Shown piece after piece: positions 14,282-57,755 of a stretch of 57,943 bases of DNA. The notes beneath the pieces were generated by a model that was not told the origin of the DNA, ran no database searches, and saw nothing but the letters and a program-made list of their open reading frames with translations. How positions within the stretch are numbered: the first letter of the stretch is position 1; the number at the start of each line of letters is the position of its first letter. Source of the stretch: Chiloscyllium plagiosum (lineage: Eukaryota); contig NC_057756.1 of NCBI RefSeq assembly GCF_004010195.1, positions 7,975,707-8,033,649 of the forward strand, in the 5' to 3' direction. A program made the translations under genes and the position numbers.

Positions 14282-14283
14282 AT

Positions 14284-14301
14284 TGGGGGCTTGTCCAGGA
14301 T
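14284..14301 (+). promoter_or_regulatory. Primer binding site, tRNA-Pro type
   Basis: TGGGGGCTTGTCCAGGAT versus the canonical Pro PBS TGGGGGCTCGTCCGGGAT. Both mismatches are CpG-type transitions. Confidence 0.88.
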
Positions 14302-14344
14302 GTTCTTCCATCGCCGGGGGGAGTGGCTGGCCCTGGACACTCTG

Positions 14345-14437
14345 ATCAAAGGGCCAGTGGAATCTCCAGTTGAGGAAGAGGTCTGGACAGCCGAATCAAT
14401 GCACGAACCACTGAAACTCAGGCTAAAGAGACTTTGA
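14345..14437 (+). pseudogene. pol: C-terminal ~30 codons of retroviral integrase (end of pol)
   Basis: IKGPVESPVEEEVWTAESMHEPLKLRLKRL-stop resembles the W-x7-PLK(L/I)RL-x-R end of gammaretroviral-type integrases. Confidence 0.7.
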
Positions 14438-14529
14438 GTAACTGATTATACAGTGGCGACATGAACGTGGGATTATTTCTGTAGGATTGTATATTAAGTC
14501 TTTTTGTGCGTCAGCACGTTTTTTTTAGA

Positions 14530-16368
14530 ATGCTGGGGATGCTTAGGGTTATGATACAAGCTCTCCTAATATTGGGATATTGTCAAACATTATTTCCATA
14601 TGTGTTCCTGAGTCTGATAATCCACAAGTAATAGACACTGATGCATGTAGCTTAGTAAATTGTGGGGATGTAGATCATCAGAGACAGCACTAAGCTCAGA
14701 GATACATCTTACGTCCTATGGGGAAGGCCTTGGGGATGGTACTTGATATAATGGTCTCGTCACAGTACACCGGGCCCCCTTCCGACCAGCTCGCGATTGT
14801 CCCGATAAAAAGTGTAACCCAATATACCTAACGATAAAGAAGACCACATGGCATGAAGCAATTCTGGGGGGGCACCTATGAGATACAATTAGATGAAACA
14901 TTTGGGATAGAAATGAAAGCAAACGGGAATGATTTCTCAGGCTGTTGTTTTTGAATTAGTGTAGGACAGGGAAAATGGGTAGAACTACTTGATAATAAGG
15001 TACAACGTTTCACCCCTCCTGATGACCCTAAAGTAGTCAAAATTATAGAGGTAAAGGACTTGAAACAGACCATCAAAATAGAAACTGGGTACGGGGATGC
15101 AAATGCCTGGGTTGAATGGGTAAAGTATACTGTAAAAAGTCTGAACAAGAGCCATTGCTATGCATGTGCCTCCGGTAGGCCAGTGGCCCAGGTGGGTCCC
15201 TTTCAGCTCGGGTGGAAGCGAGACAGGAAGGGCATGAAATGTATGATAGCCCTGTATCAGGATGAGGCTGCATGGAATGACAGGAACTGTACCTCCCTAT
15301 CTCTGATGTTCCCTCCCTTGGAGAAAAAAGACTTAAAAGCCCCCCCCCACGTTTTCAGCCACAGTTGGAAATCACACGTCATGTGTGCATAGACGAGGTA
15401 CAAATCGGTCTAGAGATTTGGGGGAGCTGAAATTGTGTACAGAGATTAAGAATGTCACCAAAACGGAGAAGGGAGGGAACTACTCAGCACTAAAGGTTCC
15501 CCGAGCGGATCTGTGGTGGTACTGTGGAGGCAAAATATAGAGACCCACCCTCCCTCCGGATTGGAGAGGGATATGTGCAATTGGCAATTCCATTTACCCT
15601 GGCATTTGAGAAGGAAAAGATAGGAGAGAAAAATGGAAGGAGTAAGAGATCACTGTTAGACACCTCTTTCGATGGCAGGATTTATCTAGACTCTATAGGA
15701 GTCCCTGGGGGGTTACCTAATGAGTTCAAGGTTCTCAACCAGACTGCAGCAGGCTTTGCGTCAGCTCTCTTCTGGTGGGTAACAATTAATAAAAATGTAG
15801 ATTGGATACATTCCATTTTCTATAATCAACAGTGATTTATAAATTATACAAGAGATGCGGTTAAAGGAATATCAGAACAGCTTGATGCGACAAGTAGGAT
15901 GGCATGGGAAAACAGAATGGCCCTTGATATAATTCTAGGGGGAAAAGGGTGTGTGTGTGTGTGATGTTAGGAAGAAGCTGTTGTACCTTTATTCCTAATA
16001 GCACTGTGCCTGATGGTTCAATTACTTAGGCCTTAAGGGGATTAACTTCCTGAGCAGAGGAACTGGCTGAGAAGTCAGGAGTAGACACATCTCTCACAGG
16101 ATGGCTTGAATCACGGTTTGGAAAATTGAAGGGGGTGGTGGTTTCCGTCCTTACTTCCCTGAGAGTGGTAGCAGGGGTATTGGTAGCCATTGGCTGTTGT
16201 ATCATACCCTATTTACAAGGGCTAACCCAGAGACTGATTGTGACAACCTTAATGAAACAAATGTCCCTAAAGAGCATTCGGAGAGAAGGGCTCTACCTGT
16301 TAAACAATGAAAGAATAAGTGACCTCAGGGAGATTTCCAAAATAAATGAAATTTTGTGTAAGAAGTGA
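14530..16368 (+). pseudogene. env: Gamma-type retroviral envelope gene, disrupted by stops and frameshifts (ERVPb1/fish-ERV-like)
   Basis: Signal-like MLGMLRVMIQALLILGYC, DACSLVNCG, CNP, CXXC (CYAC), furin site RSKR, LDSIGVPGGLPNEFK, ISD-like WENRMALD, CX6CC (CVMLGRSCC), and a TM followed by GCC. The start coordinate is approximate. Confidence 0.9.
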
Positions 16369-16403
16369 CATCAGAAAAATGCAGAAGGTAACAAATGATA
16401 ATT

Positions 16404-16420
16404 AAAGAAAAAGGGGGAAA
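16404..16420 (+). promoter_or_regulatory. Polypurine tract of the ERV
   Basis: AAAGAAAAAGGGGGAAA immediately before the 3' LTR. Confidence 0.9.
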
Positions 16421-16421
16421 T

Positions 16422-17091
16422 TGTGGGATATAGGTAATGTTACTTCTGCAATCATATTTACTTATGCAAGGTAAATGAACTCGCACCAGTGTATAATTGT
16501 TTCAGCCAAGAGCTGAGTCAACAAGATTGGAAACTATGTGAAGGAAATACATAATTGTTTTTGTATTAGTTGAAATGTGCCTATAAAGAATGATAGATGT
16601 TACAGACAAATAGATAAGGTACTGTGAGGGGAGGGGGTTAAGCTAGATACGCCTGTACAAACAGTAGGTATAAGCATCTGTCTCCCGCTTCTGCAAAAGC
16701 AAGAACAAACCACAATCAAGAGGTCATGAGGTCATAAGGTCATACAAGTAAGGGAGGATATACCTAACGATGGCCCACAGCAGGATGTGGTCAAACGGCC
16801 TCATGATGCCAGAAATAAGCATTTTGTCACAGACAAGGCTGGATAAGGCAAGAGATGAACAAGAGTAATGGGCGCTGGTCTTAGAGAGGTGCGGGATGTA
16901 AACAGGGGAGCAATGGGAGGAGAGAATAGGAACCAAATTACATAAATGTTGTGTACTAGTTAAATTCAGTGTGTGTGTCCCTGCCTTGCAGACAGTGGAC
17001 TCCACACCCTCTTGCAAGAGTAAATGACACTACTGATTCAGATCTTGTCTCGGACTGAAATTATTGACGTGAGTGAGCTTTGTTTCTCACA
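16422..17091 (+). repeat. 3' LTR of the ERV (670 bp)
   Basis: About 95% identical to the 5' LTR by manual comparison. TG...CA ends. Confidence 0.95.
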
Positions 17092-28819: not shown

Positions 28820-29610
28820 CCAAGATCAGTCAAGGTCACCCCCAGGGGTCAGTCAGGCCTTCAGTCAGTGTCACCCCCAGGAGTCAGCAGGGAGCTCAGT
28901 TAGGGTCACTCCCTGGGTCAGCAGGGTCCAAGATCAGTCAGCTCCAGGCGTCAGCAGGGAGCTCAGCCTGGGTCACCCCCAAGGGTTAGCAAAGAGCTCA
29001 GGGTCATCCCCAGGAGTCAGCTGGGAGCTCAGTCAGAGTCAGGGTCACCCCCCCAGGGGTCAGCAGGGAGCTCAGTCAGGATCAACCCCCGGGGTCAGCA
29101 GGGAGCTCGGGGTCAGCAGGGAGCTCAGGGTCACCCTCAGGGGTCAGCTGGGAGCTCAGTCAGAGTCAGAGTCACCCCCCCAGGGGTCAGCAGGGAGCTC
29201 AGTCAGGGTCACCCCCCAGGGTCAGCAGGGAGCTCAGTCTGGGTCACCCCCAAGGGTTAGCAAAGAGCTCAGGGTCACCCTCAGGGGTCAGCTGGGAGCT
29301 CAGTCAGGGTCACCCCCCGGGGTCAGCAGGGAGCTCAGTCTGGGTCACCCCCAAGGGTTAGCAAAGAGCTCAGGGTCACCCTCAGGGGTCAGCTGGGAGC
29401 TCAGTCAGGGTCACCCCCCCGGGGTCAGCAGGGAGCTCGGGATCAGCAGGGAGCTCAGGGTCACCCTCAGGGGTCAGCTGGGAGCTCAGTCAGAGTCAGA
29501 GTCACCCCCCCAGGGGTCAGCAGGGAGCTCAGTCAGGGTCACCCCCCAGGGTCAGCAGGGAGCTCAGTCAGTGTCACCCCCAGGAGTCAGCTGGGACTCC
29601 AATCTGGGCC
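28820..29610. repeat. GC-rich minisatellite, ~36-bp unit CAGGGAGCTCAGTCAGGGTCACCCCCCAGGGGTCAG
   Basis: About 20 tandem variant units visible directly in the sequence. Confidence 0.92.
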
Positions 29611-30825: not shown

Positions 30826-31756
30826 GCGGAATATTCAATTAGAGTCCAGCGAAGTTTAACGATCAGCTTTCTGAATGTGATTTGCATTCAATAATTGTGT
30901 TACTTTAACATCTTGAAATTATCCTGAACTGTAAATCTCCAGGCAATCTCCTATGGGAATGATAAACAGAGCTGGTACACAGTTCAGAGAATGAACGCAC
31001 CACCACTACACCACCAACTTTCCCTCCCTGCCCCCAATCCACACCTCAATTCCTTGCATGAACCTCCAATATTTACAGCCCTGTGTCAGTACTGTCCCTC
31101 TGACAGTGTGGCACTCTCTCTGTGCTGACTCTCTGATGATGCAACATTTTCTCCACACTGTTCCTCTTACAGTATGCTGTTCTTCACTGTTGGTATCAGC
31201 CGACATATTCTATTCAACTTCCTGCAGTGCTACTCAAACCCACCATCCACTGAATCAGAGGCTTCAGTCACCAACTGAACCATGATCAACACAGGAGAAT
31301 GTCTGTAAATATTGTCAGAGGAACAGAGGAATGACTGACCTGGATTAAAGCCAAGGTACAAACATTATGGAAGGCTAAGTACAGAGAATCTGCAGGGATT
31401 CTAATCAACTGAAAGATGGAGACCCAAAAATAAAATTTTGTTTGAAACGAGAGAAGAAAGACATCCCCATGTTATATTAGTGATTCCAACAGATGATTCA
31501 TTGAGTCTTCAAGCAGCCATAACTGTGCTAGCTCAAGTGTGCTATGCAGCAAGTCCCACTCATCCCAAACCCTGTGAATTTTTCATGATAAAATGTTTCT
31601 CCAATTCTCCCTGTGTCAAGTTGAATCTGCATCCCTTGCCCTTTCAGGCAGCATGTTCCAGTTACACAACAACTCAGGAAAACCAAATTCTTCCCCTCTC
31701 TGACAGGATCATCTGCTAATCTCCCACAACGCAGCAGAATTCTCTCACACCCCTGA

Positions 31757-32166
31757 CTAAAACAAGTCCTGTACAAGGACAACTAATGGCAGGAGCAGAA
31801 AGGTCACTGTCTGTACTGTGCTGCCCCCTGAATCTGCGGGCATTGCTGTCTGTACTGTGCTGCCCCCTGAATCTGCGGGCATTGCTGTCTGTACTGTGCT
31901 GCCCCCTGAATCTGTGGGCATTGCTGTCTGTACTGTGCTGCCCCCTGAATCTGTGGGCATTGCCGTCTGTACTGTGCTGCCCCCTGAATCTGTGGGCATT
32001 GCTGTCTGTACTGTGCTGCCACCTGAATTCCTAAGGTTGCAGCCGTTGTCTTGGCAACAGTAGAAGTCTTGTTTTGGCTGCAGGTTGTAAAACTTCATGA
32101 CGTCTGAGTTTCTGCAGAAGCTCTCAGATGCACAGCCTTTAACGATTACATTGTGCTCTGGGAAAT
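31757..32166 (-). CDS. LU-domain gene exon 9: second half of LU4, 13-aa repeat stalk, GPI-signal-like tail
   Basis: ttttcag acceptor. Reads DFPEHNVIVKGCASESFC...FYCCQDNGCNLRN(SGGSTVQTAMP[T/A]D)x5 SGGSTVQTVTFLLLPLVVLVQDLF-stop. Confidence 0.9.
31808..32026 (-). repeat. Coding VNTR, 39-bp unit, about 5.6 copies
   Basis: Tandem ctgtctgtactgtgctgccccctgaatctg(c/t)gggcattg units. Confidence 0.95.
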
Positions 32167-32263
32167 CTGAAAAGAGGTAAAGTCGGTGTGAGGCGAATGA
32201 TACGTTGATGCTGCGTCAGTGTTACGTTGGGAGACAATTGATACGGTAAAACCCAAGACTCAC

Positions 32264-32398
32264 CTGTAGCTGAGTAGTGAAGACAGCGTGTCTGATGCCC
32301 GACACATTTCACCAAGTTCCTGCGATCTACGCAGCTCGTGTTCCTAAATGGCATGCATCCGTAACACTCCAGCCCATTATAGGTGGTGTTTATTTTTC
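32264..32398 (-). CDS. LU-domain gene exon 8: first half of LU4
   Basis: AG/GT flanks, phase 1-1. Reads GKINTTYNGLECYGCMPFRNTSCVDRRNLVKCVGHQTRCLHYSAT. Confidence 0.92.
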
Positions 32399-33203
32399 CT
32401 GAGCAACAGAAAAGAAAGGCACATGTCAGTTTCACTGTGCAATTTCCTCAATGCGTCCTTGTATCAAAAATCCTAAGGGAGCATCCTTTGTTGGAATCAT
32501 AAGGAAGTCATATTCATATTGGATAATAGCTGTCCAAATAGAGGTGAAGGCTAAGGGGAGCACTCAGGTGGATAAGGTCAGATGATGTAGCCATATTTGC
32601 ATTAGCCACAACAGCATCATTGTGAAAGTTCTAGTCTCCGTCATCAAAGCATGTAGAGGCACGGGAGAAGGTGAACTTGAGATTTCGAAGATTGCCTTCA
32701 GAAGCTATTGGATTTATCTGTAGATATCTGGTTCTCTTCTTTCTAAAAGGGAGCAAGCTAAGAGGGAATTCTGTTTATTTTCTCACATCAATGAAAGGTG
32801 TTGATAGGGTAGAGAAGGTGTGGGAGACACCAGACCCAAGGGCCATCAATATCAGAGACACAATAATCCAAGCAGGAATTTAGGAGAATCGTCCTTATTG
32901 AGGGACTAGGAGACTGTGGGCTTGTCACCTTTGAAAGTGGTATCATGTCAGTTTAAGTTGGAAGCTCCATTAAATCCATGGGGGAGAAAAGAATCTAAGA
33001 CTATAGCAATGGGGTGAGCTGAGGTGGGGGGAGGGTGTAGGGGGGGATGGAGGATGTCCATGTGGAGCATGAAAGCACCAGCGTGCAGCAGATGGACTGA
33101 ATGGCCTCTATCTTTGCGACAGATACTTTCACATTTTGACATGGACATAGCATGCTACCTTTGTGTGTGTGTGTATGTGTGTGTGTGTGTGTTTATGACC
33201 TAC

Positions 33204-33341
33204 CTGTGATTACTGTGTCATTGCAGAGCTCTGATTGGCAGCAGGACTCAGATGTTTCCACTGAGAATGTCCCAGCGTTAAAGGACAGATTGCCAGTACA
33301 GTTCCCACAACCACGAACGCCAAACTGTCTGATCGTCCCAC
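33204..33341 (-). CDS. LU-domain gene exon 7: second half of LU3
   Basis: AG/GT flanks, phase 1-1. Reads SGTIRQFGVRGCGNCTGNLSFNAGTFSVETSESCCQSELCNDTVIT. Not in the ORF track. Confidence 0.92.
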
Positions 33342-35094
33342 CTGTACAAACAGAGTCAGGCATTTAACTGAGACAAAACCCAGAGGAAGGATCATGCAGG
33401 CAGATGGCTGCCCTATTGTTCTGGCTGAAGTTCATTCCTGGAATATTGTACTTCCAATATTAAAGGCTTCCCTCCACGAGTCCCACCACTCATCCTGATC
33501 TCTGTAAACTCCCGCAGCCTCTCTACCCCTCCATACCTGTGTAACCTCATTCAGGCACTACATGCCTCCCTATTTCTGTAACATTCCCCAGTCTCTAGAC
33601 TCCTCCCTATCTGTTACTTCCTCCAGCCCCTAAACTTCTCTCTATCCCTTTCTCTGAACTTTCTCTGAAGATCTGAAACCTGAATACAGGTGGAGGTGAC
33701 TAGTTGTTATCAGGGATAACCATTTAACAGATGCTGTCAATAACCTAGGTGGCAACAAGATGGCTTCTCAAAACAAATAATGTAACAAAATGGCTTTTAG
33801 GCTGCAAACTGACAATTCTGCTAAAGCTGCATAAAATGGCTTTTCAGTTACTAACTGCTAATTCTGCTATAGCTGCATAAGTGATTAACCTCAGTCTGCT
33901 TCAATAGAGATTAGCAGACAATGTGCCTTTTAAGGCATAGAAATAACTCTATTGGCCATCCTAACTGACCTTCAGATGCAGGTGAAATGGTGCGGTTAGT
34001 GAGATAAGGGTGGTCTGAGTGTTGGAAAATATAGTTGGTTCCCAGGAAGTAACTGTCAAATAAAGCAGTATCGTGTAGTGATTGGTAATTGTTTGAATAT
34101 ACTATGTGATCATGGCCTGTACCCTTCATTAAGAAAAGTAGAGAAATGTCTTTGTGTTAAGCCATGTGTGCCGCTCCTCTGAGGAATACGGAAGTACACA
34201 ACTTCTGTGTTTCACAGCCGTATGAAGAAATAAAGAATGAAGTCTTAAAGACCTGGACTGATTGTGAGTGCTTATTGACCGATCACAGAACAGATGAACC
34301 CCCCCCCCCCCCCCCACCCCTCCAAACCACTCATGGGGGTCTAGATCTTTACCTCCAGCCCCAGCAAGCCTCAGAGGTCCCTCAGACCCTCCAGTTCTTT
34401 CCTTTTACCTTGTCCCCAATTCCCATCGCTCCACTTGTGGTAGCCATCTCTTCAGCTGCCTGGGGTCCCAAGGTCTAGGATTCCCACCAAAAACCTCTGC
34501 ACCTTCCTCCCTACCTCTGTCTCTTACTCTATCTCTGCACCTCCCTCTTTCTCTCACCTTTATCTCATTTAAGATGCTCCAAAGGTCCTTCATTTTCCAC
34601 ATTGCTCTCTGTGGCCGGTTGTAATATCTCCATTTCTTACTTGGTGTCAAACCAAGTATTATGTAATCATGTCAAATTCCTTCAAGGTGTTGCACTATGT
34701 TAAAGGTGTTTTATAAATGCAAGAGATTGGTGTTGGTACACTCCTTGATTGCTTCAAGACATTTATTCAAGTTATCCTCTAAGCCACTCACTATTCTGAC
34801 TTGAAAGTATATCGCTGTTTCTTCACTGTCATTTGGTCAAAATCCTGGAATTTCTCCCTATTGAATTGTGGGTCAACCCACAGCATGTGGACTACAAACG
34901 GTTCAAGAAGGCAGTACATCACGACCAGGGATGGGCAGTAAATGCTGGGCCAGTCAGTGACACTCGCGTCCCACAAATGAATGAATTAATTTTAAAAAGT
35001 GATGTATCCCAGAGTCAAACATATAAAGTATCAATGATTTAGACTGAAAGAATCTTCAGCTATTTGAAGCAGACTTTGTTCCTGGGTTACTTAC

Positions 35095-35199
35095 TAGTGT
35101 CTTCTTTGATCAAGATTGCTTTACAGTCTGAAGAGATGCATTGTATTGGAGTGGGTTCACAGCTTCCAGACGCACTGTCACAGGATTGACATTTTCGTC
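35095..35199 (-). CDS. LU-domain gene exon 6: first half of LU3
   Basis: AG/GTAAGT flanks, phase 1-1. Reads GRKCQSCDSASGSCEPTPIQCISSDCKAILIKEDT. It follows an 80-bp intron. Confidence 0.88.
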
Positions 35200-35279
35200 C
35201 TTCACAGGGAATGAAGACAGAATATTAGACGGAATGAATGTAGATTTCAGTTTCCCACCTACCCATGCTGTATTCGTAC

Positions 35280-35429
35280 CTGGGAGAGTTCTTTCATTGT
35301 TACACAGATTCCCTTCACAAAACTGGATGTCAGAAACCGTTTGTACTCCGAAAACCGATGATGATTTGACTAGCTGACGGGCACTCTCAGATACACATCC
35401 CTTGACGATAACCGAACTGTGTCCTCCAA
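35280..35429 (-). CDS. LU-domain gene exon 5: second half of LU2
   Basis: AG/GT flanks, phase 1-1. Reads VGGHSSVIVKGCVSESARQLVKSSSVFGVQTVSDIQFCEGNLCNNERTLP. Confidence 0.9.
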
Positions 35430-35699
35430 CTGTTGGTGATAGAAAGTTCCAGGTATTTTCAATTGAGCAATTGTATAATAACCTGTTCATTCCACTTGCT
35501 TGTTCCTGAAGCAAAACCACAACCAGCAGCAATCCTGGAAAAAGGTCTTTAGACTCAAACATGCATTTATATTCTTCTAAAGATAAAACAAAACAAGTTG
35601 CAAAGATTGGGACGAGACTTCAGGAGAAATTTGAATCCACACGTGAGATTTCTCCTCCACCTGTCCATGTCGGTGTCACTACCTCACTTCCTGCAACAT

Positions 35700-36350
35700 T
35701 CCCTAGATCTGTGTTTGCATCCAGCCTTATCACTGTAATCTCCTCCAACTGCCAAAACCCTCCCCATCGCTGTAATCTTGTCAGCTGCCTCCCTATCTCC
35801 GTAATTTCCTCCAGCATCTGTGCCCTTCACTGTCTCAAACCTGCTCCATCCCTACATCTCCTTATTTCCTTCAACCTCCTCGTGTCTACAGCCATCCTTA
35901 TTTACGTAACTCCTCCAGCCCCTGTACCCCTCCCTACCTTTGTAAATTCCCCCCGTCTGTATACTGTACTCTAACTCTGTAATCTCTGCTAGCCCCATCA
36001 TGCCTCCCTATCTCTGTAACTGCCTCCACACCTGACAGTACTCCCTATCTTTGTAGCCTGCCTTAAACCACTTTCATCTCCCATCCCAGCCCCTAACTCC
36101 TCCCTAGCTCTGTAATCTTCTCCAGCCCCGCCACCTCTCTCACCTCTGTCACCTCCTCCAGCCCTGACACCCCTCCCTACCTCTGTAAACTGCTCCAGCC
36201 CCAGCACACCTACATATCTTTGTAACCACCTCCAGACCCAGCATCTCTGTAACCACTTCCAGCCCTTACACCCCTCCCTATCTCTGCAACCTCCTCAGCC
36301 TCTATATCCATCTCTATCACCATAAGCTCCTCCTGCCCCTACAACCACTC
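35700..36350. repeat. Degenerate C-rich tandem repeat (ctccctatctctgtaacctcctccagccc-like)
   Basis: Recurrent motif; a shorter tract occurs at about 33470-33660. Confidence 0.7.
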
Positions 36351-36722
36351 AAGATTTCTTTACTCCTCCTTTCTACGTGATGATCATCCGAAATTGCAAT
36401 TTTCAGTTCTGCCTGTCCCTATCTGTCTCTCTCTCTCCATCTCTCTGCTCCTTGAAGATACTAATTCCCTTTTTGTCTGCTTGAATTACGTGGAAGGGAA
36501 GACGGTCATTGTTCATTTGATGGCTGTTTGGAGAAGAATCGCAGAGTGGGTTGTGATTGTAGGATTCACACCATCAGCAGGAATATTCCTGAAATAACAT
36601 TGCATGGCATAACCGGATTTCACGTTTGAATTTCATTTTCATTCTTCCCTCCCTGAGAGTGTTTTCCTCAGTGAGGCACTGAGTGACATTTCGTCTCTTG
36701 GGATATCAGTTCAGAAACTTAC

Positions 36723-36866
36723 CAATGGGCAGCTGAATGTCAGTATATCCGCAGCGATTCTCGATCCCTGTACATTTCACAATGGTTAAGCTGTTGACAC
36801 ACTCACTGACAGAATTACTGTAGCACCCATAGCACTCGAGACCATTCACTGATGTGTTCTGTTGTA
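36723..36866 (-). CDS. LU-domain gene exon 4: first half of LU2
   Basis: AG/GTAAG flanks, phase 1-1. Reads VQQNTSVNGLECYGCYSNSVSECVNSLTIVKCTGIENRCGYTDIQLPI. Confidence 0.92.
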
Positions 36867-37086
36867 CTGAAAGAATAATATCGAACATTAAGGATTACAA
36901 TGGGACTGCCATGGGGAGGGAGAAACAGAGTTACCCTTGTCATTAATCAGTCACACAGAACAGAATGAGGCATTTCAGCCCATCGTTCCTCTGTGAGCAT
37001 TTCCCCGACAGCCTTGCAACTTGTTCCTTTTTGAGTGAGTCATTCACTCGAAGGTGCTGCTTGGTTCCACATGTTTCTGACCTTAC

Positions 37087-37224
37087 CTTGATAATTGACA
37101 TTGTTACATAAGTCAGAATTACAGCAACGGGATCCCTGGAAAAGAGCGATTGAACCAAAGTTGAAGGAAAAAGCATCGTTGCAGAATCCACAACCTTTAG
37201 CAATGTAGCTGGATGTTGTTGAAC
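37087..37224 (-). CDS. LU-domain gene exon 3: second half of LU1
   Basis: AG/GTAAG flanks, phase 1-1. Reads GSTTSSYIAKGCGFCNDAFSFNFGSIALFQGSRCCNSDLCNNVNYQ, with the CCxxDLCN signature. Confidence 0.93.
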
Positions 37225-38669
37225 CTATAAACACACAGAGATTGACTGTCCTTGATTCAGTACAAACAATCACTTCCTCTGTTATTCCATACATACATGT
37301 TTGTCTATCATTTTATCAAAGTGTATGTTTTCAAATAGACATGCTCAGCAGCGAGTAGGACTCATATTTGGAGTATTGTGTATAATCTGGTCGCCCTGTT
37401 AGCGGAAAGTTATTAAACTGGAAAGGGTGCAATAAAGATTGACAAGTGTTACGAAGTTGAAGGCGTGTACTGTACCTTTAAGGGAGAGTGAATGCTGTTC
37501 TAAAGTGAGAGATTACAAGTCCCTGTGTATATGACTAGATGGCAGTCCCAGAGAGTACTGGAAAACTGAAAAGATGTAACATTTGGCCATAAAAGAGATA
37601 CCTGAGTTCTGGTTGCTATTTTGCCAGCAATTCAAATTTAACCAAACAGTTTAAATTGTGCTCAATCAAGTTTGAACTTATTGTTTTACCAACATCGAAC
37701 TAATGAGACGATCCACTGTTGAAGGTATAGAGATGCAGCATTTTGAAAATTGGTCAGAGAGCAACTACCACTGAGCCAGAAATGCAGGGAAGGCTAATAT
37801 CTTGCTCTCCAAAAAAAATTAGGAAACACTCTGTATCAAGGGTACCTTTTCATGCGCAGTAAAAATGAAGAAGGTGAGCCAGGGAGATTTTCAGCTGGAA
37901 GAAAAGAGACACAGAAGATGACAGCAGCTTTTGAAATTAAGTTGGTGTGATTTTAAAAGGTGTTTTGCTGGAATAGTATATCGTTTAAGACTTGGAGGCA
38001 GATAATAAGCGGGTAAGAGGAAGAGGGGCTTTGAATTGTGAATATTTCTTTAATGTTTACTTCTAGAGTTTTAAAAAAAATGCTATTTTCTTTAAATAGT
38101 GGAATTTGGGAGTTCTCTGTCCTAAATGTTTTAACAGATTAGGAGGCGAGGTGAGTTTTTCTAGCTGTCTGGTTTAACTAACAGAGGGGTTCATCTTCTA
38201 GTTGTGACAGTTTGGGGGTGTGGGTCGGAGATTTGGACAGGTTCAGACAGATTCAGTCTGAAGTTTTGAACAGATTTGGAGTAGAAAAGATCCCTGCAGA
38301 TTTAAATACTTGCCAATTAGTACCCCAGCTCTTTAAATAGAACATGGGTGAGAAAGTTTGTTTAATTCAGTTACTTGCGGTTAGTTAAATTAGAAGTGAG
38401 GGCATTGGTTGTTGAGATTGGGGTGTGAAGATGCTTCCCAGATTTGTCAAGGAAGTTTAGAAAGTCGGAGGAAACACCTATTTTTAGAATTAACAAATAA
38501 GTTAGAATTGTTTTAACCAGGAACAAAAGAAAAGCTGAAATTGTAATGAGGTTGGTCAGCACTCAGGTGTATCAGAGAAACAGACAAGTACAATAAAGTT
38601 AGAAAAATGTAAATTGCAGTTGAGGGAAATGGAGTTAGAAGATAAAGAAAGGGAAAGAAGAGCCACGTT

Positions 38670-39295
38670 AGAGTCATAGAGATATACAGCATGGAAACAG
38701 ACCCTTCGGTCTAACCCGTCCATGCCAACCAGGTATCCTAACCAAATCTAGTCCCACCTGCCAGCACCCAGCCCATATCCCTCCAAACCCTTCCTATTCA
38801 TATACCATCCAAATGCCTCTTAAATGTTGCAATTGTACCAGCCTCCACCACCTCCTCTAGCAGCTTATTCCATACACGTACCACCCTCTGTGTGGAAAAG
38901 TTGCCCCTTAGGTTTCTTTTATATCTTTCCCCTCTCATCCTAAACCTATTCCCTCTAGTTCTGGACTCCCCAATCCGAGGGAAAAGACTTTGTCTATTTA
39001 CCCTATCCATGCCCCTCACAATTTTGTAAACCTAAGGAGCTATGAACCTGCACTCCAAGGTCTCTTTGATCAGCAACACTCCCTAGGACCTTACCATCAA
39101 ATGTATAAGTCCTGCTAAGATTTGCTTTCCCAAAATGCAGCACCTCACATTTATCTTAATTAAACTCCACCTGCCACTTCTCAGCCCATTGGCCCATCTG
39201 GTCAAGACCCTGTTGTAATCTGAGGTAACCCTCTTCGCTGTCCACTACATCTCCAATTTTGGTGTCATCTGCAAACTTACCAACTGTACTTCTTA
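38670..39295 (-). mobile_element. CR1 LINE 3' fragment nested in the Gypsy element
   Basis: ORF 38798-39019 matches the CR1 ORF2 C-terminus; KFADDTKI near 39260. Confidence 0.85.
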
Positions 39296-41219
39296 TAGAA
39301 AAGGAGAGAAGATTCTTAGCTGAGTAAAAAGAGAGGAGAAAGAGAGAGGAAAAAGAAGGGGAAAGAAGGTTTTTTTTAGCTGAGCAAAGAGAGAGAGGAA
39401 AATGAAAAGGAGAGGCAATTTGAACTTCACAAGTTGTGAATTAATCAGCAAAGTCAAGTTAACAGGATGGAGATGAAGAGAGAAAGTTAAACATTGCCAC
39501 CTTTTGATGAGAAAGATGTCAAAGCCCTTTTTATTTCATTTGAAAAATTGGCTAGGAACTTGGAGTGACCAGAGAACTTGTAGGTAATGCTAATTCTGAC
39601 TAACCTGGTAGGCAGAGCTAGTGAGGTATTTGCAGCGCTATCGGATGAGGAGTCAAGAGATTATCCAGATGTCAAAAAAGCTATTTTGAGTGCTTGCGAA
39701 TTGGTATCAGAAGCATAAAGAAGGAACCAGGTCAGACTTATGCTGAGTTTGAAAGAATTAAACATAGTAATTTTGATAGATGGGTGCGGGCTTAAAAATA
39801 GACAAAACCTATGAGACTCTAAGAGAGGTTATTCTGCTGGAGGAGTTTAAAAACTTACTTCCTGAGATGATAAGAATTCAAGTGGATGAACAAAGTTCAA
39901 GAAGTGAGAAGAGAAGCAGAGATGGCAAATGAATATGCATTGGTGCCTAAGACGAAATTTAGCTTATGGCAGGAATATCACCCTGTGAGGGCTGGAAGTT
40001 AGGCAAAGAGGAAATCCTGCACTACAAAACAAAGAGTAGATCACACTGGGAATAGTGTATCACAGGTGAAAAAGGAAACCCAAGAGGGTGAGAAAAAGGT
40101 GAAAGGTCTCAATGTGTTTTCACTGGAATAGAGTGGGATACAGAAAATTACCATGCCAATGGATTAAGAAAGGACCTGGGAAAAAGTGATTTTACTGCAA
40201 GAGCAAAATCACAATACTGGTCGTTGTAGAAAGGCACTGTGGAAAAAGGTGCATTAAAAGTGGCTAAGTCAGTGGGATTAAACAAAGTAGTAAAGGAAAC
40301 TCCGAAAAAAGTCAGAGTTGCAGGAGAGTGCCTAAGCAGGGGCTGAGTATTGAGTCATGGCCTGATCTCTATAAGAACTTCACCTCCGTGGGTAAAGTTT
40401 ACTCAGGAAGAATAGGGGGAGAAGGGAAAGAAGTTAAAATTTTGAGAGACACAGGAGCTATAGTAAGAGACAAATGTAGTAAGAGACAAATGTAAGAGTA
40501 AGAGAAAGTAAGAGACAAATAGTAAGAGACAAATGTATTTGCACTCCTTCTGACATGTTATCCAAGTGAATGGTAATCCGTGGAATAGAAATTTAGCTTT
40601 TCCCTGTGTAAGATCAGGTTGGAGAACCAAATCAAGACTCAGGAAGTAACAGAGTCAGTTCCAGAAATATGGTTTGTTTTTGGGGACAGTTCAGCAGGAG
40701 CCAAGATGGGAACGAATCCCCTTTTCGTGGAAAAGCCAAAGGGAGGCCAGCGAATTGAGGAGTTAAAAGAAAAATACCCTGGAATTTTTCCAGATTCTGC
40801 AGTAACAAGCTCCCGCTGTCATTAGTCACAGCAAGAAGCAAATGCTAAGGAGAAAGATGGAGTAGAAGTACAATTAGCTGACACGGTGTTTGACGTGATG
40901 GTGCAGGAAAACCTGAACAGGTAGAGGTTCAGGCAGAAGTGTTTAGTCCTGACAGGTGAATGGACTTACAACAGAAAGACAAAACAATGAAATACACAAT
41001 ATATATTCATGCATACTCAGAAAAGGCATCAGAATGTATTCCTGGGAGTTATTATCTTAAAGATAGAATCCTAAGATGAAAATGGAGACCATGGCAGGTT
41101 AGTGCAGAGGAGAATAGGGCATAAGTGCACCAGATTGTGTTGCTGGTTGTATACAGACAGGGAGTGTTATGGTAGCATGTAAATTATCAGTAGGACATCA
41201 TCTACGTGTGAGGAAGTTC

Positions 41220-41822
41220 TTGAGGAGTGGAATACGATAGTGACCTATCCGTTGAGTGGGAGCAGCGGCCGAGTTGAGGTGAACCCGGGAGACTACAGCT
41301 AAGGTAAGAGTTTTTTTCAAAATTACTTACCTGTAGCGGGCATCGGTGTTTTGTTTTCTCTCTCCTTCACAGAAAGAGCGGGAGCAGCAGAGGAAGTGAC
41401 GGCAAGCAGAGGGACAGCCGNNNNNNNNNNNNNNNNNNNNNNNNNNNNNNNNNNNNNNNNNNNNNNNNNNNNNNNNNNNNNNNNNNNNNNNNNNNNNNNN
41501 NNNNNNNNNNNNNNNNNNNNNNNNNNNNNNNNNNNNNNNNNNNNNNNNNNNNNNNNNNNNNNNNNNNNNNNNNNNNNNNNNNNNNNNNNNNNNNNNNNNN
41601 NNNNNNNNNNNNNNNNNNNNNNNNNNNNNNNNNNNNTGGAATGAGCTGCCAGAGGAAATGGTGGAGGCTGGTACAATTGCAACATTTAAGAGGCATTTGG
41701 ATAGGTATATGGAGGATAGTGGGTTAGTGTAGTTTAGGTGGGCTTGGATCGGCGCAACATCGAGGGCCCAAGGGCCTGTACTGCGCTGTATTCTTCTATG
41801 TTCTATGTTCTATGTTCTATGT
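41220..41822 (+). mobile_element. Young CR1 sequence around an assembly gap (N 41421-41636)
   Basis: The 3' end has a (ttctatg)n tail. The CpG-rich segment before the gap may be a CR1 5' UTR. Confidence 0.65.
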
Positions 41823-43153
41823 CTCGTGACCAAGAACTGAATTGAAAGGCTTGTTGCAGTGGTAGGAGGACATAGGAAGGAATAAGATGGGGAGGCCTCA
41901 TACCATTACGCATGTGGTGGAAATAGGGAATGCTGCTCTGATAAAATAACACCCCTATTAATCCTATCAAAGCCACGTAGTTCCAGAAGGAATTGAATAT
42001 GATGCTCAACAAAGACATAATTGAACTAAGTCAGAGTGAGTGGAGTTCGCCGATCGTGTTAATCATTCTCAAACCTGACAGGACTCAATGATTTTATGTG
42101 AACTATCGGAAGGTCAATGGTGTAAGAAAATCAGACTTCAATTCAATACCAAGATTGGAGGACTGTATCGAGAAACTTGGACAAGCCACTTACATCACTA
42201 AGTTGGACTTACGGCATGGTTATGGGCAGATACCTTTATCCGAGAAAGCGACAGAAGTTTCTGCGTTTGAAACTTCAGATGGGCTATATCTTTGAAATGA
42301 AGACACACAAGCCACATTCTAAACACTCATGAAGGGAGTTGTGGCCAGATTAATAAATTGTGCAGTTTATCTGGATGACGTAGTGATCTTTAGGTAGGCT
42401 TGGAAAGATCACATGATACAGTTGGCAGAGCTTTTTGAACGATTATGAGAAGGAAAACTCGGAATAAACCTAAAGAAAACAGAATTCAGGAAGGCAGAGG
42501 TGACATTCTTGGGACGTAACATTGGTCATGGAAGGTTGATCCCAAGGAATGCGAAGCCAAAGGCCTTCGAGGAATTTCCACGACTGTCCTCAGAAAGATG
42601 TGCTTTGATTTTTGGGACTAAGTGGATTCTAGCGGAAGTTTGCTCCAAACTTCAGCAGCGAGGTCATGCCACAAACAGATTTACTAAAGAAGAACACAAA
42701 ACTTTGGACGGAGGCATTTGAGAATTTAAAAGCAGTATTAACCACCACACCAGTTTTAGCTATATCAAATGTTTTTAAATCCTTCAAAGTTGCAAACTAT
42801 GCTGCCAATATAGGAGTTGGAGCTATACTGCTGCAGAGGATGATGGTGGAATTGAGCGGCATATTGGCTACTTTTCAAAGAAACTCAACACCAACCAGAG
42901 AAAATACTTTTAACATCGACAAAGAATTATTGAGTTTGATTCTGGCTTTACAACATTTTAATGTTTATGTGATGATAAATGTGTCGGAGACTGTCATGTA
43001 CACTGACCACAATCCTCTTACATTCTTGGAAAGACTTAAAGACAAAAATATGACAGTATTTCATTGGAGTCTTATGTTATATTATAGACTTCTAATTTAC
43101 AAATTATACATGTTGCGGACTTAGAAATTTTAATTATTCAGATGCACGCTCAC

Positions 43154-43264
43154 CGATTCTTACTGTGTCTAAGAAGGTTGTGCATTGCAGGCCTGGACGG
43201 CATGTGATCTGCCTTGTACAGTTTCCGGTTGGATTAAGACAAGTGTAACAGGTCAGAGTGGAGG
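43154..43264 (-). CDS. LU-domain gene exon 2: first half of LU1
   Basis: ttttcacag/GTGAG flanks, phase 1-1. Reads ASTLTCYTCLNPTGNCTRQITCRPGLQCTTFLDTVRI. Confidence 0.92.
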
Positions 43265-43608
43265 CTGTGAAAAGATGCAAGCAAAGAGAAAATGATCGGT
43301 CAGAGTTGGAATCACATGGAACGGAACTCATGTGTGGGACTAAGGAACAAGCGCCTTTGGAGTGTCAAGGACCTTTCAGATCACTTCCAAACATAGGTCA
43401 GAAGTTCACTCCCCTCCATAGCTCAGAGAAACATGGCAGCCAGTTGATGCACAGCAAGATATAGCAATGAGATAAATGATTGGCTGTGTGGTACACCATC
43501 CAACCCATCCATGCTCTGTCTGAAGGCAGGTTTTGATTATTAATTGGAGATAAATATTGCTCCAGGCTAGCATGGAGAACTCACTTCATTCTCAAATAAT
43601 TATTGTGT

Positions 43609-43685
43609 GGTTGTGCACATTAATTTCAGAGTTCAGTTGGGGACTTGGTTGTGCACATTAATTTCAGAGTTCAGTTGGGGACTTA
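43609..43685. repeat. Perfect tandem duplication of ~38 bp
   Basis: ggttgtgcacattaatttcagagttcagttggggactt occurs twice in tandem. Confidence 0.9.
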
Positions 43686-44389
43686 GTTACTTTCTCGGAG
43701 TAAGGATACTTGGGAGCATTATTCCCTCAGTACTGTCAACCTGGTTTTTATCTGTTCAGTTCTCTGGAAGTTGAACATTGAGCTGGGACTTTGTGACTTC
43801 AGAAATGAGAGTGTTACCCACTGAGCTAGAGCTGAGATTTGGAACATTTTCAGATTCATGGTGCTGTTTGCCATTGACTGGAAACTGAACTGGGTGAGCT
43901 GTATAAGTTCAGTGGCTGCAAGAGCAGGTCAGAGGCTGGGGATCCTGGTGCGAGTAACTCGCCTCCTGACTCACCAAAGCCTGTCCACCATCGACAAGGC
44001 ATGATTAAGAAGTGCGATTGAATACGCCCCATTTGCCTGAAGGGGTGCAGCTCCAACAACACACAAGAGGCTTGACACCATCCACTTGATCGGCACCGCA
44101 TCCGCAAACATTCACCATTCACTCCCTCCACAATGAATACACAGTGACTGTTCTGTGAACCATCCACAAGGTACACTGCAGCAACTCACCAAGGCTCTTT
44201 ATTCAGCACCTTCCTAATGATCCCCATCACGGAAAGGACCAGAGCAACAGATATGTGGGAACACCAATTTGTTACTCTCTAAACCATGCTTCACATTGCC
44301 TTTCCTTCACTGCTGCTGGGTCAAAATCCTGGCATTCCCTTCCTAGCAGCGCTGTGGTTGCATCCACACCACACAGACTGCAATATGGC

Positions 44390-44722
44390 CATGGCACATT
44401 GGTTCATTGGTTAGCAGTTCTGTCTCACTGCGCCAGGGAGCTGGGTTCAATTCCACCCTCAGACAACTCCCTGTGTGGAGTTTATATGTTCTCCCCGTGT
44501 CTGCATGGGTTTCCTGCTACAGTCCAAAGATGTACAGATTACATGGACTGACCATACTAAACTGCCCAGAGTGTTCAGGGATGTGTAGATTAGGTGTGTT
44601 AGCCATGGGAAATCTAGAGTTAGACAAAAAAGTAGGGAGGTGGGTCTAGGTGGGATGCTTTTCGGAGGGTCAGTGTGGACTTGTTGGGCCAAATGACCTA
44701 TTTCCACACTGTCGGGATTCTG
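44390..44722 (+). mobile_element. HE1-like SINE
   Basis: Same head and body as 23790-24097. Confidence 0.8.
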
Positions 44723-45069
44723 TGAAAAATACCCAGTATCACCTTGTCAAGAGTCATGAGGGTTAGGTATGTCATCATCTCCAAAGAATGTGTTAAAAAA
44801 TTCACCACCTGTGTCTGGAATGAAGTCAGATGATAGGACTGCTCTCTCATTCAAGAGAAAGAGTTGACTGCTGGTGGCTCCCCACACCTCAGGAGAGGGC
44901 AAAGGTTGAAAAGGAGAGTCCTTCATGTAACCTCAGCCAGTGTGGGAATTGAATCCACACTGCTGACATCACTAACTGTATTGCTATGACAGTGCTCCTC
45001 ACTAATATCTCCATTGACATGATCAGCCTGAAAGAGATGAACAAGTGAAATATTGAAGAAACATCTCAC

Positions 45070-45118
45070 CTCCAGTAACTAGAACAAAAACGTTGAGAAT
45101 ACTGAAGAGGAACTTCAT
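45070..45118 (-). CDS. LU-domain gene exon 1: signal peptide
   Basis: ATG at 45118, MKFLFSILNVFVLVTG + G|gtgag (phase 1). An in-frame upstream ATG at 45136 is also possible. Confidence 0.85.
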
Positions 45119-45208
45119 CTTGCTTTGATCGTCCATGTTCCTTGTGTAGATCAGTGAGTCAAACCCCTTCTCTTCAGGGCTGTGTAGCTGGTGTCTGACA
45201 CTCAATAA

Positions 45209-55534: not shown

Positions 55535-57755
55535 TAATGATACCAGACTGAACCCCCTTAAAATATATTAAGAAAGTAGATTCTTCCCTAATGTTTTCCT
55601 ATATTAAAGGTAAGGTGTTGTTTTGCAGGTACAATTTGATTAGTCAAACTGCTTAATGTTACGCAAAACACACTTTCTTCACACACTAAGTTGAAATGCA
55701 ACTCCATTGGAAAACTTATCAGAAGAGTAGATTAGTTAGCGATTAAACAGTAACTGTTCAAATAGAGTAATGTTCCATTCATACACCCTTGGCAAATAAC
55801 AAATTCAGAAAACAGATTGTCTCACATTCGACTCCAACAGTCCAGGAGGAAGAAATATCAAGAGAAAAGTCAGACAGGGAATATAGCAAGAAGAGATGTA
55901 CTTCAGCAACAGACCTAGATATAACTGCTGTTGAAAATGTAAGTTAAAAATCCTAATTCTGAGAGAGCTTGAACATACCCATTTAGTTTGCTTGTATTGT
56001 TCCAACATAATAAAAAAAACAAGTCCTCACAAGCTGTTTGCTTTATTGGTTTTGATACTTGTGTGTTAAAACCGCTCTTCAAACAAAAAGGGGCAAAATA
56101 ACCTCTTAAAGCCACAGTATCATCAACCCCCCCCTTAAGAAAACCATCAATGCCTTTTATTAATTTATGGGACTTGGGTGATGCTGGCTGGCCAGCATTG
56201 ATAGCCCACCTCTCTTTGCCCTTGAGAAGTTGGTGGTATGCTGCTTTCATGAATGACTGCAGTCCACTTGCTGTAGGTTGACCCACAATGCCGGTAGGGA
56301 GGGAATTCCAGGATTTTGCTGCTGTCTTTTACGATTTCACATGGTCCGTCGGGTTTCATTTCTTTGTTGTGATTTTCTAGCGGTTGATATGACTGATTGG
56401 CTTGCTAGGCCATCTTAGAGGGCAGTTGAGAGTCAACCACATTGCTGTGGCTCCAGACCAGATACAGATGACAGATTTCCTTCCCTAAGGGACATTAGTG
56501 AACCAGATGGGTTTTTATGACAATTGACAATGGTGTCACGGTCATCAGTCAACTCTTAATTCCAGATGTTTTTTATTGAATTCAAATTCTACCATCTGCC
56601 AAGGTGGTATTTGAACCCAGCTCCCTAGGTTATTATTCTGGGTTTCTGGCCCATATTACAAAAAAACCTTCATCTAGCTCAGTTAGTACACTACAATACA
56701 TGTACATTACATAAACTCTAAGCACACAAACATTTAGTGATACAGTCCACTTCAGTCTTTTTTCTTTCCCTGCCATTGAACACTACTCAAAGCTCCATCT
56801 TCCTTCGTCACAGTTATGTTTTATCATCCTGCTCCGTGTATAATTTTCTTATTGAATGGCTGCAATAATAAGCTATATCTAAACATCTGGAATTTTTGTG
56901 CTTAAATTTTTCAATTAACTTTATCATATACAATTGTCTCAGATATATTACTGATAATATAAATGGTGAAATGCTGCAACTTCAACACTAAGTCAAGGTC
57001 TCCTTCTCAATTGAGGAATATTTCTGTTGATGTTTATTCAATTTTCTAGGAAAATACCCAATAGGTCTTTCTGTCTTCTTGTCATCTTCCTACAAGAGTA
57101 CAACAGTGACACCCACATCACCTGCATCAATGGCTACCTTGAATGGCTTTGCACAATTAGTTTTGGCTAACACTGGGGCAGTGGTTTACGCAGCTCTCAG
57201 GGCTCAAATACCTTCTGACAGTCCACTACTCACTGAAATTTTCTGCATTTCTTCAATAATTCAGTTCATGGAGCAACGACGCAGCTTTAGTTCATTATCT
57301 TTCTGTTCTAATTCAGCTAAATTCTCTGAAAGAAAAATATCCACTTTGTCCTTCACTTCCTCTTGTTTCTTTTTCTCAACATTTGATCAAACATGGTCTC
57401 TGATAATTGAACATTAACTTCCTTATCTTTATTCTTTGATTTCTCCTCCGGTTTTAATCTGTGACTCACCATACATTCCAAGATATACTTCCAGAGACTC
57501 CTCAGTTGCCTGATTTTCCACTGGCTTTTGAACTACTGTAGGCATCATTCCCACCTGTGATCCAGCCAAATCATTATCAAGAATAAACTGCATTCCTGCC
57601 ATGAGAGCTTCTCTATTACTGCGACTACCACTTCACTACTTTTCACCAGACTCTCCAAAATCACTTTACATTGTCTCACCATGAATTTCATATATTATCA
57701 CCTTTCCTGGCAATACTCATTCTGAATTACATACCTCCTCATCTGTTGCCATCAA
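55535..57755 (-). mobile_element. Gypsy (Gmr1-like) element 3' part: post-protease region, RNase H, PPT and 3' LTR (about 55535-56125), with SINE/LINE inserts
   Basis: Minus-strand QFILDNDLAGSQVG and FKVAIDA...PIGYF.RKL...YSSIEKE. A G-run PPT at 56127-56134 precedes the LTR. Confidence 0.75.

What the first reader, a model, noticed from the sequence alone, without database searches (positions are those of the whole stretch)
31757..45118. Complete four-LU-domain, probably GPI-anchored protein built by duplicating a two-domain PLA2-inhibitor-like cassette
Seen: nine exons, all introns phase 1, 1380 nt (459 aa), no internal stops. LU1 resembles LU3 (GCGxC..(F/L)SFN.G...CC.S(D/E)LCN; both second-half exons are 138 nt). 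LU2 resembles LU4 (NT..NGLECYGC, VKC.G...RC, VIVKGC.SES). Established: gamma-type PLA2 inhibitors and PINLYP have two LU domains, uPAR three and human CD177 four. Inference: a CD177-like architecture in a shark, either orthologous or independently derived.
Basis: partly seen in the sequence, partly recalled or inferred. Interest (0 to 1): 0.7.

Follow-up and report, generated by a model that had tools for sequence, protein, structure and literature searches.

The report
Shark four-domain uPAR-like surface protein
This is a real, spliced shark gene for a probably membrane-anchored protein with four 'three-finger' domains; sharks and rays most likely built it by doubling a two-domain unit, so it resembles the human neutrophil protein CD177 in layout but is probably not its counterpart.

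Summary
The gene is real: nine minus-strand exons, eight GT-AG phase-1 introns, 1380 nt, 459 aa. It is identical to RefSeq XP_043539170.1 (Chiloscyllium plagiosum, 'uPAR-like'), which starts six codons earlier. Seven of 8 junctions, including LU2-to-LU3, are listed in one public run, so it is not two genes. The layout is (A-B)x2. Four-domain orthologues occur in sharks and rays. Both units carry a short C6-x2-C7 loop seen in 28 of 32 named elasmobranch units and 0 of 14 bony-vertebrate units. This points to assembly in the elasmobranch lineage, independently of CD177. CD177's disulfide pattern (3-4-3-4) is not met (5-4-5-5 here), and the PLA2_inh profile is not hit. The nearest solved structure is uPAR domains II-III. 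Deep trees conflict, and CD177 could not be put in them. Most likely role (inferred): a GPI-anchored, glycosylated surface receptor that holds an extracellular protein ligand; the ligand is untested. No description of the family was found in six literature searches. Repeated LU multiplication is common in fishes, so interest is moderate.

The parts
45070..45136 (-). Exon 1 coding part: signal peptide.
   Evidence: junction 45070/43264 in run X1
43154..43264 (-). Exon 2: first half of LU1 (A-type), 5 Cys
37087..37224 (-). Exon 3: second half of LU1, 138 nt, short C6-x2-C7 loop, 5 Cys
36723..36866 (-). Exon 4: linker and first half of LU2 (B-type), 5 Cys
35280..35429 (-). Exon 5: second half of LU2; only 3 Cys (C7 and C8 lost in Chiloscyllium)
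35200..35279 (-). Intron 5 (80 nt), joining unit 1 to unit 2; spliced out in run X1, 106 letters on the shorter side
35095..35199 (-). Exon 6: first half of LU3 (A-type), 5 Cys; acceptor ends in AAG
33204..33341 (-). Exon 7: second half of LU3, 138 nt, short C6-x2-C7 loop, 5 Cys
32264..32398 (-). Exon 8: linker and first half of LU4 (B-type), 5 Cys
31757..32166 (-). Exon 9 coding part: second half of LU4, Ser/Thr-rich stalk, hydrophobic C-terminal tail (GPI-type), stop codon
31807..32028 (-). 39-nt tandem repeat, 5.7 copies, coding a 13-residue stalk repeat
31410..31756 (-). 3' untranslated part covered by a high-depth X1 contig (31410-31815, depth 6481); true 3' end not determined

Best explanation
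An elasmobranch-lineage four-LU-domain surface glycoprotein of the uPAR/PINLYP/C4.4A group of multi-LU proteins. SHOWN: one spliced gene; a signal-peptide-like N-terminus; (A-B)x2 domains; a Ser/Thr-rich stalk; a terminal hydrophobic tail with no basic cytoplasmic residues; orthologues in sharks and rays. WELL SUPPORTED (about 0.8): two copies of one two-domain cassette were joined, through phase-1 introns, before sharks and rays split and independently of CD177. INFERRED (about 0.4 for the specific role): the protein is GPI-anchored and held away from the membrane by a glycosylated stalk of variable length. Each A-B unit packs as a compact module like uPAR domains II-III. The protein works without catalytic activity, as a receptor or adaptor that captures a secreted protein ligand, most likely a protease or innate-defence protein, at an epithelial or leukocyte surface, as uPAR does with uPA and CD177 with proteinase 3. 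The ligand and cell type were not tested.
For: Gene model and junctions. Identity with RefSeq. A-B-A-B scores. Four-domain orthologues in Heterodontus, two Scyliorhinus species, Heptranchias, Pristiophorus, Hemitrygon and Narcine. Unit 1 and unit 2 each form supported shark+ray groups: 99 and 97 in the 73-row quick tree, 99/98 and 97/97 in the 41-row careful tree. C6-x2-C7 spacing in 28 of 32 named elasmobranch units (the other 4 lack C6 or C7) and 0 of 14 bony-vertebrate units (11 have 4-5 residues, 3 lack C7). All 23 elasmobranch-group rows (20 named, 3 unnamed) form one group, 85/92, after long branches are dropped. Terminal hydrophobic tail in 9 of 10 orthologue rows. Model LU3-LU4 superposes on uPAR residues 92-276: Z 15.4, rmsd 3.1, 162 aligned.
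Against: The 41-row careful tree did not keep the elasmobranch rows together, and the AU test rejected that clade (p 0.023); long branches were flagged in that set. Unit 2 grouped with the uPAR/LYPD3 group was not rejected (p 0.42). Unit 1 + unit 2 as sisters was neither found nor rejected (p 0.32). CD177, human PINLYP and snake PLI were not in the trees. The structure model is modest (pLDDT 68.8, pTM 0.55, 16 sequences) and may lean on known uPAR structures. No tissue, ligand or GPI-predictor data.
Confidence: 0.7

Rival explanations
1. It is the elasmobranch co-orthologue or functional stand-in of uPAR: LU2-LU4 play the part of uPAR DI-DIII with an extra N-terminal domain, and it binds shark uPA to focus plasminogen activation on cells.
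For: uPAR is the best PDB sequence match (E 9e-9, residues 134-378 along DI-DIII) and the best structural match. LU2-LU4 have the uPAR cysteine pattern 8-10-10 in Chiloscyllium. uPA first occurs in cartilaginous fish (PMC6337849, passages). AU does not reject unit 2 with the uPAR group.
Against: The 8-cysteine LU2 is recent: 7 of 9 unit-1 rows have 10 Cys in LU2, one has 9 and this one has 8. LU2 is B-type, while mammalian DI scores A-type or ambiguous. Both halves match uPAR DII-DIII, not DI-DIII. uPAR DII has a 5-residue C6-C7 loop, against 2 here. PMC6600238 section 4.3 says uPAR-binding uPA sequences occur only where the first LU domain lacks the 7-8 bond.
Confidence: 0.12
2. It is the shark orthologue of CD177, a granulocyte receptor for a neutrophil protease.
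For: Same count of domains, the same two-by-two layout and probable GPI anchor (PMC13022285 passages). Human CD177 also has nine exons (PMC4839075 passages). Foldseek lists CD177 9igp at E 3.3e-10.
Against: CD177 has 3-4-3-4 disulfides; the cysteine counts here imply 5-4-5-5, and 5-5-5-5 in most orthologues. LU1 keeps C7 and C8, whereas the N-terminal domain of the human 19q13 multi-LU proteins lacks that bond. The 9igp match has TM 0.23 and rmsd 14.3; against CD177 subdomain I only one domain aligns (84 residues, Z 5.9). Nine exons follow simply from one leader exon plus two per domain. Four or more LU domains recur in other lineages.
Confidence: 0.05
3. It is a doubled, membrane-bound gamma-type phospholipase A2 inhibitor that binds and blocks secreted PLA2.
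For: The two-domain A-B layout is that of PINLYP/PLI-like proteins. The top Atlas clusters by features are PINLYP-like and PLI-like, at 0.85, a lead only. Elasmobranch two-domain relatives carry such automatic names.
Against: PLA2_inh not hit. The names are automatic. No inhibition data were found for any shark member in the searches made.
Confidence: 0.1
4. Two adjacent two-domain genes wrongly joined by the reader (or rare read-through).
For: Two-domain relatives of unit 2 exist as separate genes in Hemiscyllium and Hemitrygon.
Against: The LU2-LU3 junction has the highest depth of the listed junctions (3401). Unit 2 has no leader exon in the 80-nt intron. Full-length four-domain proteins are annotated in seven other species.
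Confidence: 0.02

Closest known systems
uPAR (PLAUR), three LU domains
   Same: Best sequence and structure match; each shark unit resembles DII-DIII; probable GPI anchor; RefSeq calls the gene 'uPAR-like'.
   Different: Four domains in A-B-A-B order; the N-terminal domain keeps C7 and C8; short C6-x2-C7 loop; long repeat stalk; no evidence of uPA binding.
CD177 (four LU domains, two subdomains)
   Same: Four domains as two pairs, nine exons, probable GPI anchor.
   Different: Disulfides 3-4-3-4 against 5-4-5-5 implied here; pair packing does not superpose beyond one domain in the model; not listed in PDB sequence searches at E<=10.
PINLYP / gamma-type PLA2-inhibitor-like two-LU proteins of fishes and amphibians
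   Same: The same two-domain cassette, a linker of about 17 residues and an NGLxC start of the second domain.
   Different: Doubled; no PLA2_inh hit; elasmobranch-type loop deletion; human PINLYP is predicted to lack a GPI signal.
C4.4A (LYPD3)
   Same: Multi-LU surface protein; profile match E 1.5e-11. A Ser/Thr-rich stalk in C4.4A is recalled, not from a call.
   Different: Two domains; first domain lacks the 7-8 bond; only one domain superposes.
Elasmobranch two-LU 'uPAR-like' genes (XP_060708526.1, XP_072910525.1; Squalus and Scyliorhinus entries of PMC6337849)
   Same: Nearest relatives; the two RefSeq proteins share the C6-x2-C7 loop.
   Different: A single unit only.

Membership tests
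Ly6/uPAR (LU) superfamily | LU domain with 8-10 conserved cysteines ending in CN | tested here: met
   Pfam UPAR_LY6, four stretches, E 2.2e-26; Cys 10-8-10-10
Ly6/uPAR (LU) superfamily | Leader exon plus two exons per domain | tested here: met
   Nine exons, all introns phase 1; typical gene layout in PMC4839075 passages
GPI-anchored LU proteins | C-terminal GPI signal and actual anchoring | tested here: inconclusive
   Hydropathy only: 12-residue mean 3.02 ending 4 residues before the end, no K/R after it; small residues about 23 from the end. No GPI predictor or experiment.
CD177 | Four LU domains in two pairs | tested here: met
CD177 | Three disulfides in LU1/LU3 and four in LU2/LU4 | tested here: not met
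   10-8-10-10 cysteines here, 10-10-10-10 in most orthologues, against PMC13022285
CD177 | Head-to-tail packing of each LU pair | tested here: inconclusive
   Only one domain of the model aligns to 9igo_B; model pTM 0.55
CD177 | Groups with CD177 in a tree; synteny with the 19q13 cluster | not testable with these tools
   No CD177 sequence was returned by the protein searches; no genome held; no other host gene found in the window
CD177 | Neutrophil expression, proteinase 3 / PECAM1 binding | not testable with these tools
   Tissue of run X1 is not on record
uPAR | Three LU domains | tested here: not met
   Four domains
uPAR | N-terminal domain lacks the 7-8 disulfide | tested here: not met
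   LU1 has 10 Cys; the loss is in LU2 and only in Chiloscyllium. Lungfish uPAR-like proteins also keep the bond, so this feature does not define the whole lineage.
uPAR | Groups with the sarcopterygian three-LU clade | tested here: inconclusive
   Apart from it in the three cassette trees, but AU p 0.42 for unit 2 + uPAR group
uPAR | Binds uPA | not tested
   No shark uPA sequence was fetched
gamma-type PLA2 inhibitor / PINLYP | PLA2_inh (PF02988) domain | tested here: not met
   No hit at E<=1; 0 of 10 elasmobranch four-domain relatives at E<=0.1; 3 of all 28 proteins scanned hit, all below the cut-off
gamma-type PLA2 inhibitor / PINLYP | Two-domain A-B cassette | tested here: met
   Present twice
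gamma-type PLA2 inhibitor / PINLYP | Inhibits PLA2 | not testable with these tools
   Needs an assay

The most novel reading that the evidence does not exclude
Sharks and rays built their own multi-domain urokinase (or granule-protease) receptor from the same cassette as uPAR DII-DIII. Bamboo sharks then lost the 7-8 disulfide in the domain three from the membrane, the same position and bond lost in tetrapod uPAR DI, by convergence towards a flexible ligand cavity. Cell-surface plasminogen activation would then predate, or have arisen twice beside, the lungfish-tetrapod origin given in print.
Probability: 0.12. Interest if true: 0.7.

Novelty: new variant of a known kind. Interest (0 to 1): 0.35.

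Why it matters
The published survey of this system found only two-domain relatives in cartilaginous fishes and dated three-domain genes to lungfish and tetrapods (PMC6337849, sections 9 and 14). Here a four-domain gene is conserved from sharks to rays. It shows that the CD177-type two-by-two layout arose at least twice and gives a natural comparison for how LU pairs assemble. The Chiloscyllium-only loss of the 7-8 bond in an inner domain, against relatives that keep it, makes a direct test of the idea that this loss creates flexibility. The gain is for specialists in LU proteins and shark immunity: the gene is already annotated, and domain multiplication is frequent in this family.

Tried and rejected
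(1) Two separate genes: rejected. (2) Reading LU2-LU4 as uPAR DI-DIII because of the 8-10-10 pattern: my first idea, dropped when orthologues showed 10-10-10-10 and both halves matched DII-DIII. (3) Synteny: no genome is held; tblastn and profile scans found one LU gene in the window, and 13 other ORFs scanned gave only retroelement domains (2 of 13). (4) Expression by cell type: no holder is on record as RNA. Single-cell run X5 (about 2% read) gave no depth in the bins of exons 4-9 that were free of repeats, and X6 laid nothing; this is no evidence either way. (5) Getting CD177, TEX101 or snake PLI into the trees: three word-index searches and one HMMER search (best 150 of 241 listed) returned none recognisable; only 21 proteins were looked up by name. 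(6) Single-domain FastTree of 338 domains: splits A-type from B-type, but support is weak and the output was cut in the middle. (7) CD177 absent from the top 50 rows: not counted as evidence. (8) Earlier notes of this scan: four look-ups, nothing returned. (9) A shark skin-mucus proteome lists one UPAR/Ly6 fragment, A0A401Q2V9 (PMC10707392, passages); I could not match it to this family. (10) No complex prediction was run: no candidate partner sequence was on hand.
Full report
OBSERVATION. The feature is on the minus strand. Nine exons at 45118-45070, 43264-43154, 37224-37087, 36866-36723, 35429-35280, 35199-35095, 33341-33204, 32398-32264 and 32166-31757 join through eight GT-AG phase-1 introns into 1380 nt and 459 aa with no internal stop. 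The product has a hydrophobic N-terminus, four cysteine-rich domains with 10, 8, 10 and 10 cysteines, seven N-glycosylation sequons, a 13-residue stalk repeat (39 nt x 5.7) and a terminal hydrophobic tail. A search with the last exon found one protein. It is identical over all 459 residues, with six more at the N-terminus from an in-frame ATG at 45136: RefSeq XP_043539170.1, 'urokinase plasminogen activator surface receptor-like isoform X1', Chiloscyllium plagiosum. The gene is therefore already annotated. Pfam gives four UPAR_LY6 stretches, E 2.2e-26, and no PLA2_inh hit at E<=1.

TRANSCRIPT EVIDENCE. Four of 16 listed runs were laid. Contigs of run X1 show 7 of the 8 predicted junctions with CT..AC ends at depth 1414-3401, each from one contig, with 28-134 letters on the shorter side. 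The LU2-to-LU3 junction has 106 letters on its shorter side, and one 313-nt contig crosses exons 4 to 7. Intron 7 is not among the joints shown; 296 joints were not shown, and the exon-8 contig has 26 unplaced letters on that side. X1's library type is not on record. I take it as RNA because of the spliced joints and because its listed intron contigs are at depth 31-173. X4 shows none of these joints, as expected of DNA. X5 and X6 were uninformative.

INTERNAL STRUCTURE. Profiles built from each domain position score the window's LU1 with the LU3 profile at 50 bits, LU3 with LU1 at 50, LU2 with LU4 at 52 and LU4 with LU2 at 80; all other cross pairings score at most 10. Pairwise scores against cysteine-fixed shuffles give z 4.9 (LU1-LU3) and 12.8 (LU2-LU4), with 0 of 500 shuffles reaching either. 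The other four pairs give z 0.6-3.9. The order is A-B-A-B.

RELATIVES. Full four-domain orthologues were found in C. punctatum (93% identity), Heterodontus, Scyliorhinus torazame and S. canicula, Heptranchias (two genes), Pristiophorus and the rays Hemitrygon and Narcine. LU2 has 10 cysteines in 7 of 9 unit-1 rows, 9 in S. torazame and 8 here; C. punctatum also has 8. The loss of C7 and C8 in LU2 is therefore recent. Stalk length varies from 19 to 179 residues after the last domain, and 9 of 10 orthologue rows end in a hydrophobic tail; the exception is the S. canicula isoform.

ORIGIN. I cut proteins into two-domain units and built three trees (175 columns). With 73 rows, unit 1 (9 rows, 99) and unit 2 (13 rows, 97) are each a shark+ray group, inside a 35-row group of elasmobranch and unnamed rows (93), apart from the uPAR/LYPD3 group (95). 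With 41 rows (32 dropped, mostly unnamed or redundant) the two groups hold (99/98; 97/97), but the deeper order is open. In that set the AU test rejects one elasmobranch clade (p 0.023), and does not reject unit 1 + unit 2 (p 0.32) or unit 2 + uPAR group (p 0.42). With 33 rows, chosen after seeing that tree to drop the longest branches, all 23 elasmobranch-group rows join (85/92) and unit 2 sits with separate two-domain genes (87/81). The trees alone do not settle the deep position. A rare character is clearer. The loop between C6 and C7 of the A domain has 2 residues in 28 of 32 named elasmobranch units (the other 4 lack C6 or C7) and in 0 of 14 bony-vertebrate units (11 have 4-5, 3 lack C7); three of those 14 were assigned by likeness to lungfish and coelacanth proteins in a paper's supplements. 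Among 27 unnamed rows, left out of that count, 6 have the short loop, and these lie beside elasmobranch rows in the 73-row tree. The one Callorhinchus two-domain protein seen in the supplement has 5 residues there (read by eye). Both LU1 and LU3 carry the short loop, so both units most likely descend from an elasmobranch-lineage cassette, and their presence in sharks and rays puts the joining before that split. Internal duplication and fusion of neighbouring paralogues remain open.

HOW COMMON IS SUCH DOUBLING? Common. Other four-domain combinations occur in Stegostoma (two unit-2-type copies), Mustelus and S. canicula (a different first unit), S. torazame and the frog Engystomops. Bichirs have proteins with 8 and 14 domains and the clingfish Gouania one with at least 24. 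All-phase-1 introns make such shuffling easy (established knowledge of exon shuffling; not from a call). Four domains and nine exons are thus weak evidence of kinship with CD177.

STRUCTURE. The AlphaFold2 model (pLDDT 68.8, pTM 0.55, 16 sequences; stalk disordered) matches uPAR best: Foldseek E 1.3e-11, against 3.3e-10 (TM 0.23, rmsd 14.3) for the CD177 ectodomain. LU3-LU4 superpose on uPAR residues 92-276 with Z 15.4, rmsd 3.1, 162 aligned. Against CD177 subdomain I, TEX101 and C4.4A only one domain aligns well (81-84 residues). A predicted model may lean on known uPAR structures, so this is supporting, not decisive.

COMPARISON WITH PRINT. [quoted passage not shown] PMC6600238 (abstract, section 4.3) says the N-terminal domain of the human 19q13 multi-LU proteins lacks the 7-8 bond. 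PMC13022285 (passages) gives CD177 as two head-to-tail pairs with 3-4-3-4 disulfides, binding proteinase 3. PMC4839075, PMC8417595 and PMC10707392 were seen as passages only. Six searches (shark/uPAR/Ly6 terms, five accession numbers, CD177 with shark, PLA2 inhibitor with elasmobranch) listed no paper on this four-domain family. The library lacks most subscription journals, and supplements are not searched.

MECHANISM. Shown: splicing, domain order, conservation. Inferred from anatomy and from the known members (uPAR, CD177, C4.4A): entry to the secretory pathway, GPI anchoring, heavy glycosylation, a stalk that lifts two compact LU pairs above the membrane, and non-catalytic capture of an extracellular protein, most likely a protease or defence protein, at an epithelial or leukocyte surface. 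I put about 0.8 on the independent elasmobranch origin and about 0.4 on this role; uPA receptor 0.12, PLA2 inhibitor 0.10, CD177 orthologue 0.05.

VERDICT. Observation confirmed; interpretation partly supported. The protein works, most likely, like other multi-LU surface receptors. It is not a member of CD177, uPAR or the gamma-PLI family by the features that could be tested. New variant of a known kind, interest 0.35.

Noticed in passing
window 13596-16978 (+): A 2.8-kb element bounded by near-identical direct repeats (13596-14161 and 16414-16978, 94-96% alike) holds broken reading frames (14955-16368) that look by eye like a retroviral envelope gene (cleavage-site and immunosuppressive-domain motifs, recalled). 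No Pfam hit at E<=0.01.
   Followed up: partly
window about 39400-43130 (+), inside intron 2: Decayed LTR retrotransposon (RT_RNaseH hit at 42633-43121, E 7e-15), opposite in strand to the gene, with a 216-base assembly gap at 41421-41636. A similar decayed element lies at about 56900-57700 on the minus strand.
   Followed up: partly
window 31807-32028; P0002, P0003: The stalk repeat carries a D-S-G-G motif in each copy (6 Ser-Gly pairs here, 10 in C. punctatum, 0-1 in other orthologues), which resembles a glycosaminoglycan attachment site (recalled). The 452-aa RefSeq isoform lacks exactly one repeat, which may be an allele or an alignment artefact.
   Followed up: partly
P0023, P0027, P0029, P0030: Related multi-LU proteins (P0023 from Pristiophorus; the others unnamed) end in a hydrophobic segment followed by 11-18 residues with basic residues, i.e. 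type I transmembrane rather than GPI forms.
   Followed up: no
P0024, P0035, P0038: Very long LU arrays annotated as 'mucin-17-like' (Gouania, at least 24 domains) and 'prestalk protein-like' (bichirs, 8 and 14 domains).
   Followed up: no
window 45136-45160 (-): An acceptor-like sequence sits just before the upstream ATG, so a non-coding first exon may lie further upstream; no such joint is listed.
   Followed up: no
window 28826-29596 and 3964-6105: Degenerate tandem arrays of about 35-nt and 29-nt units, not examined.
   Followed up: no
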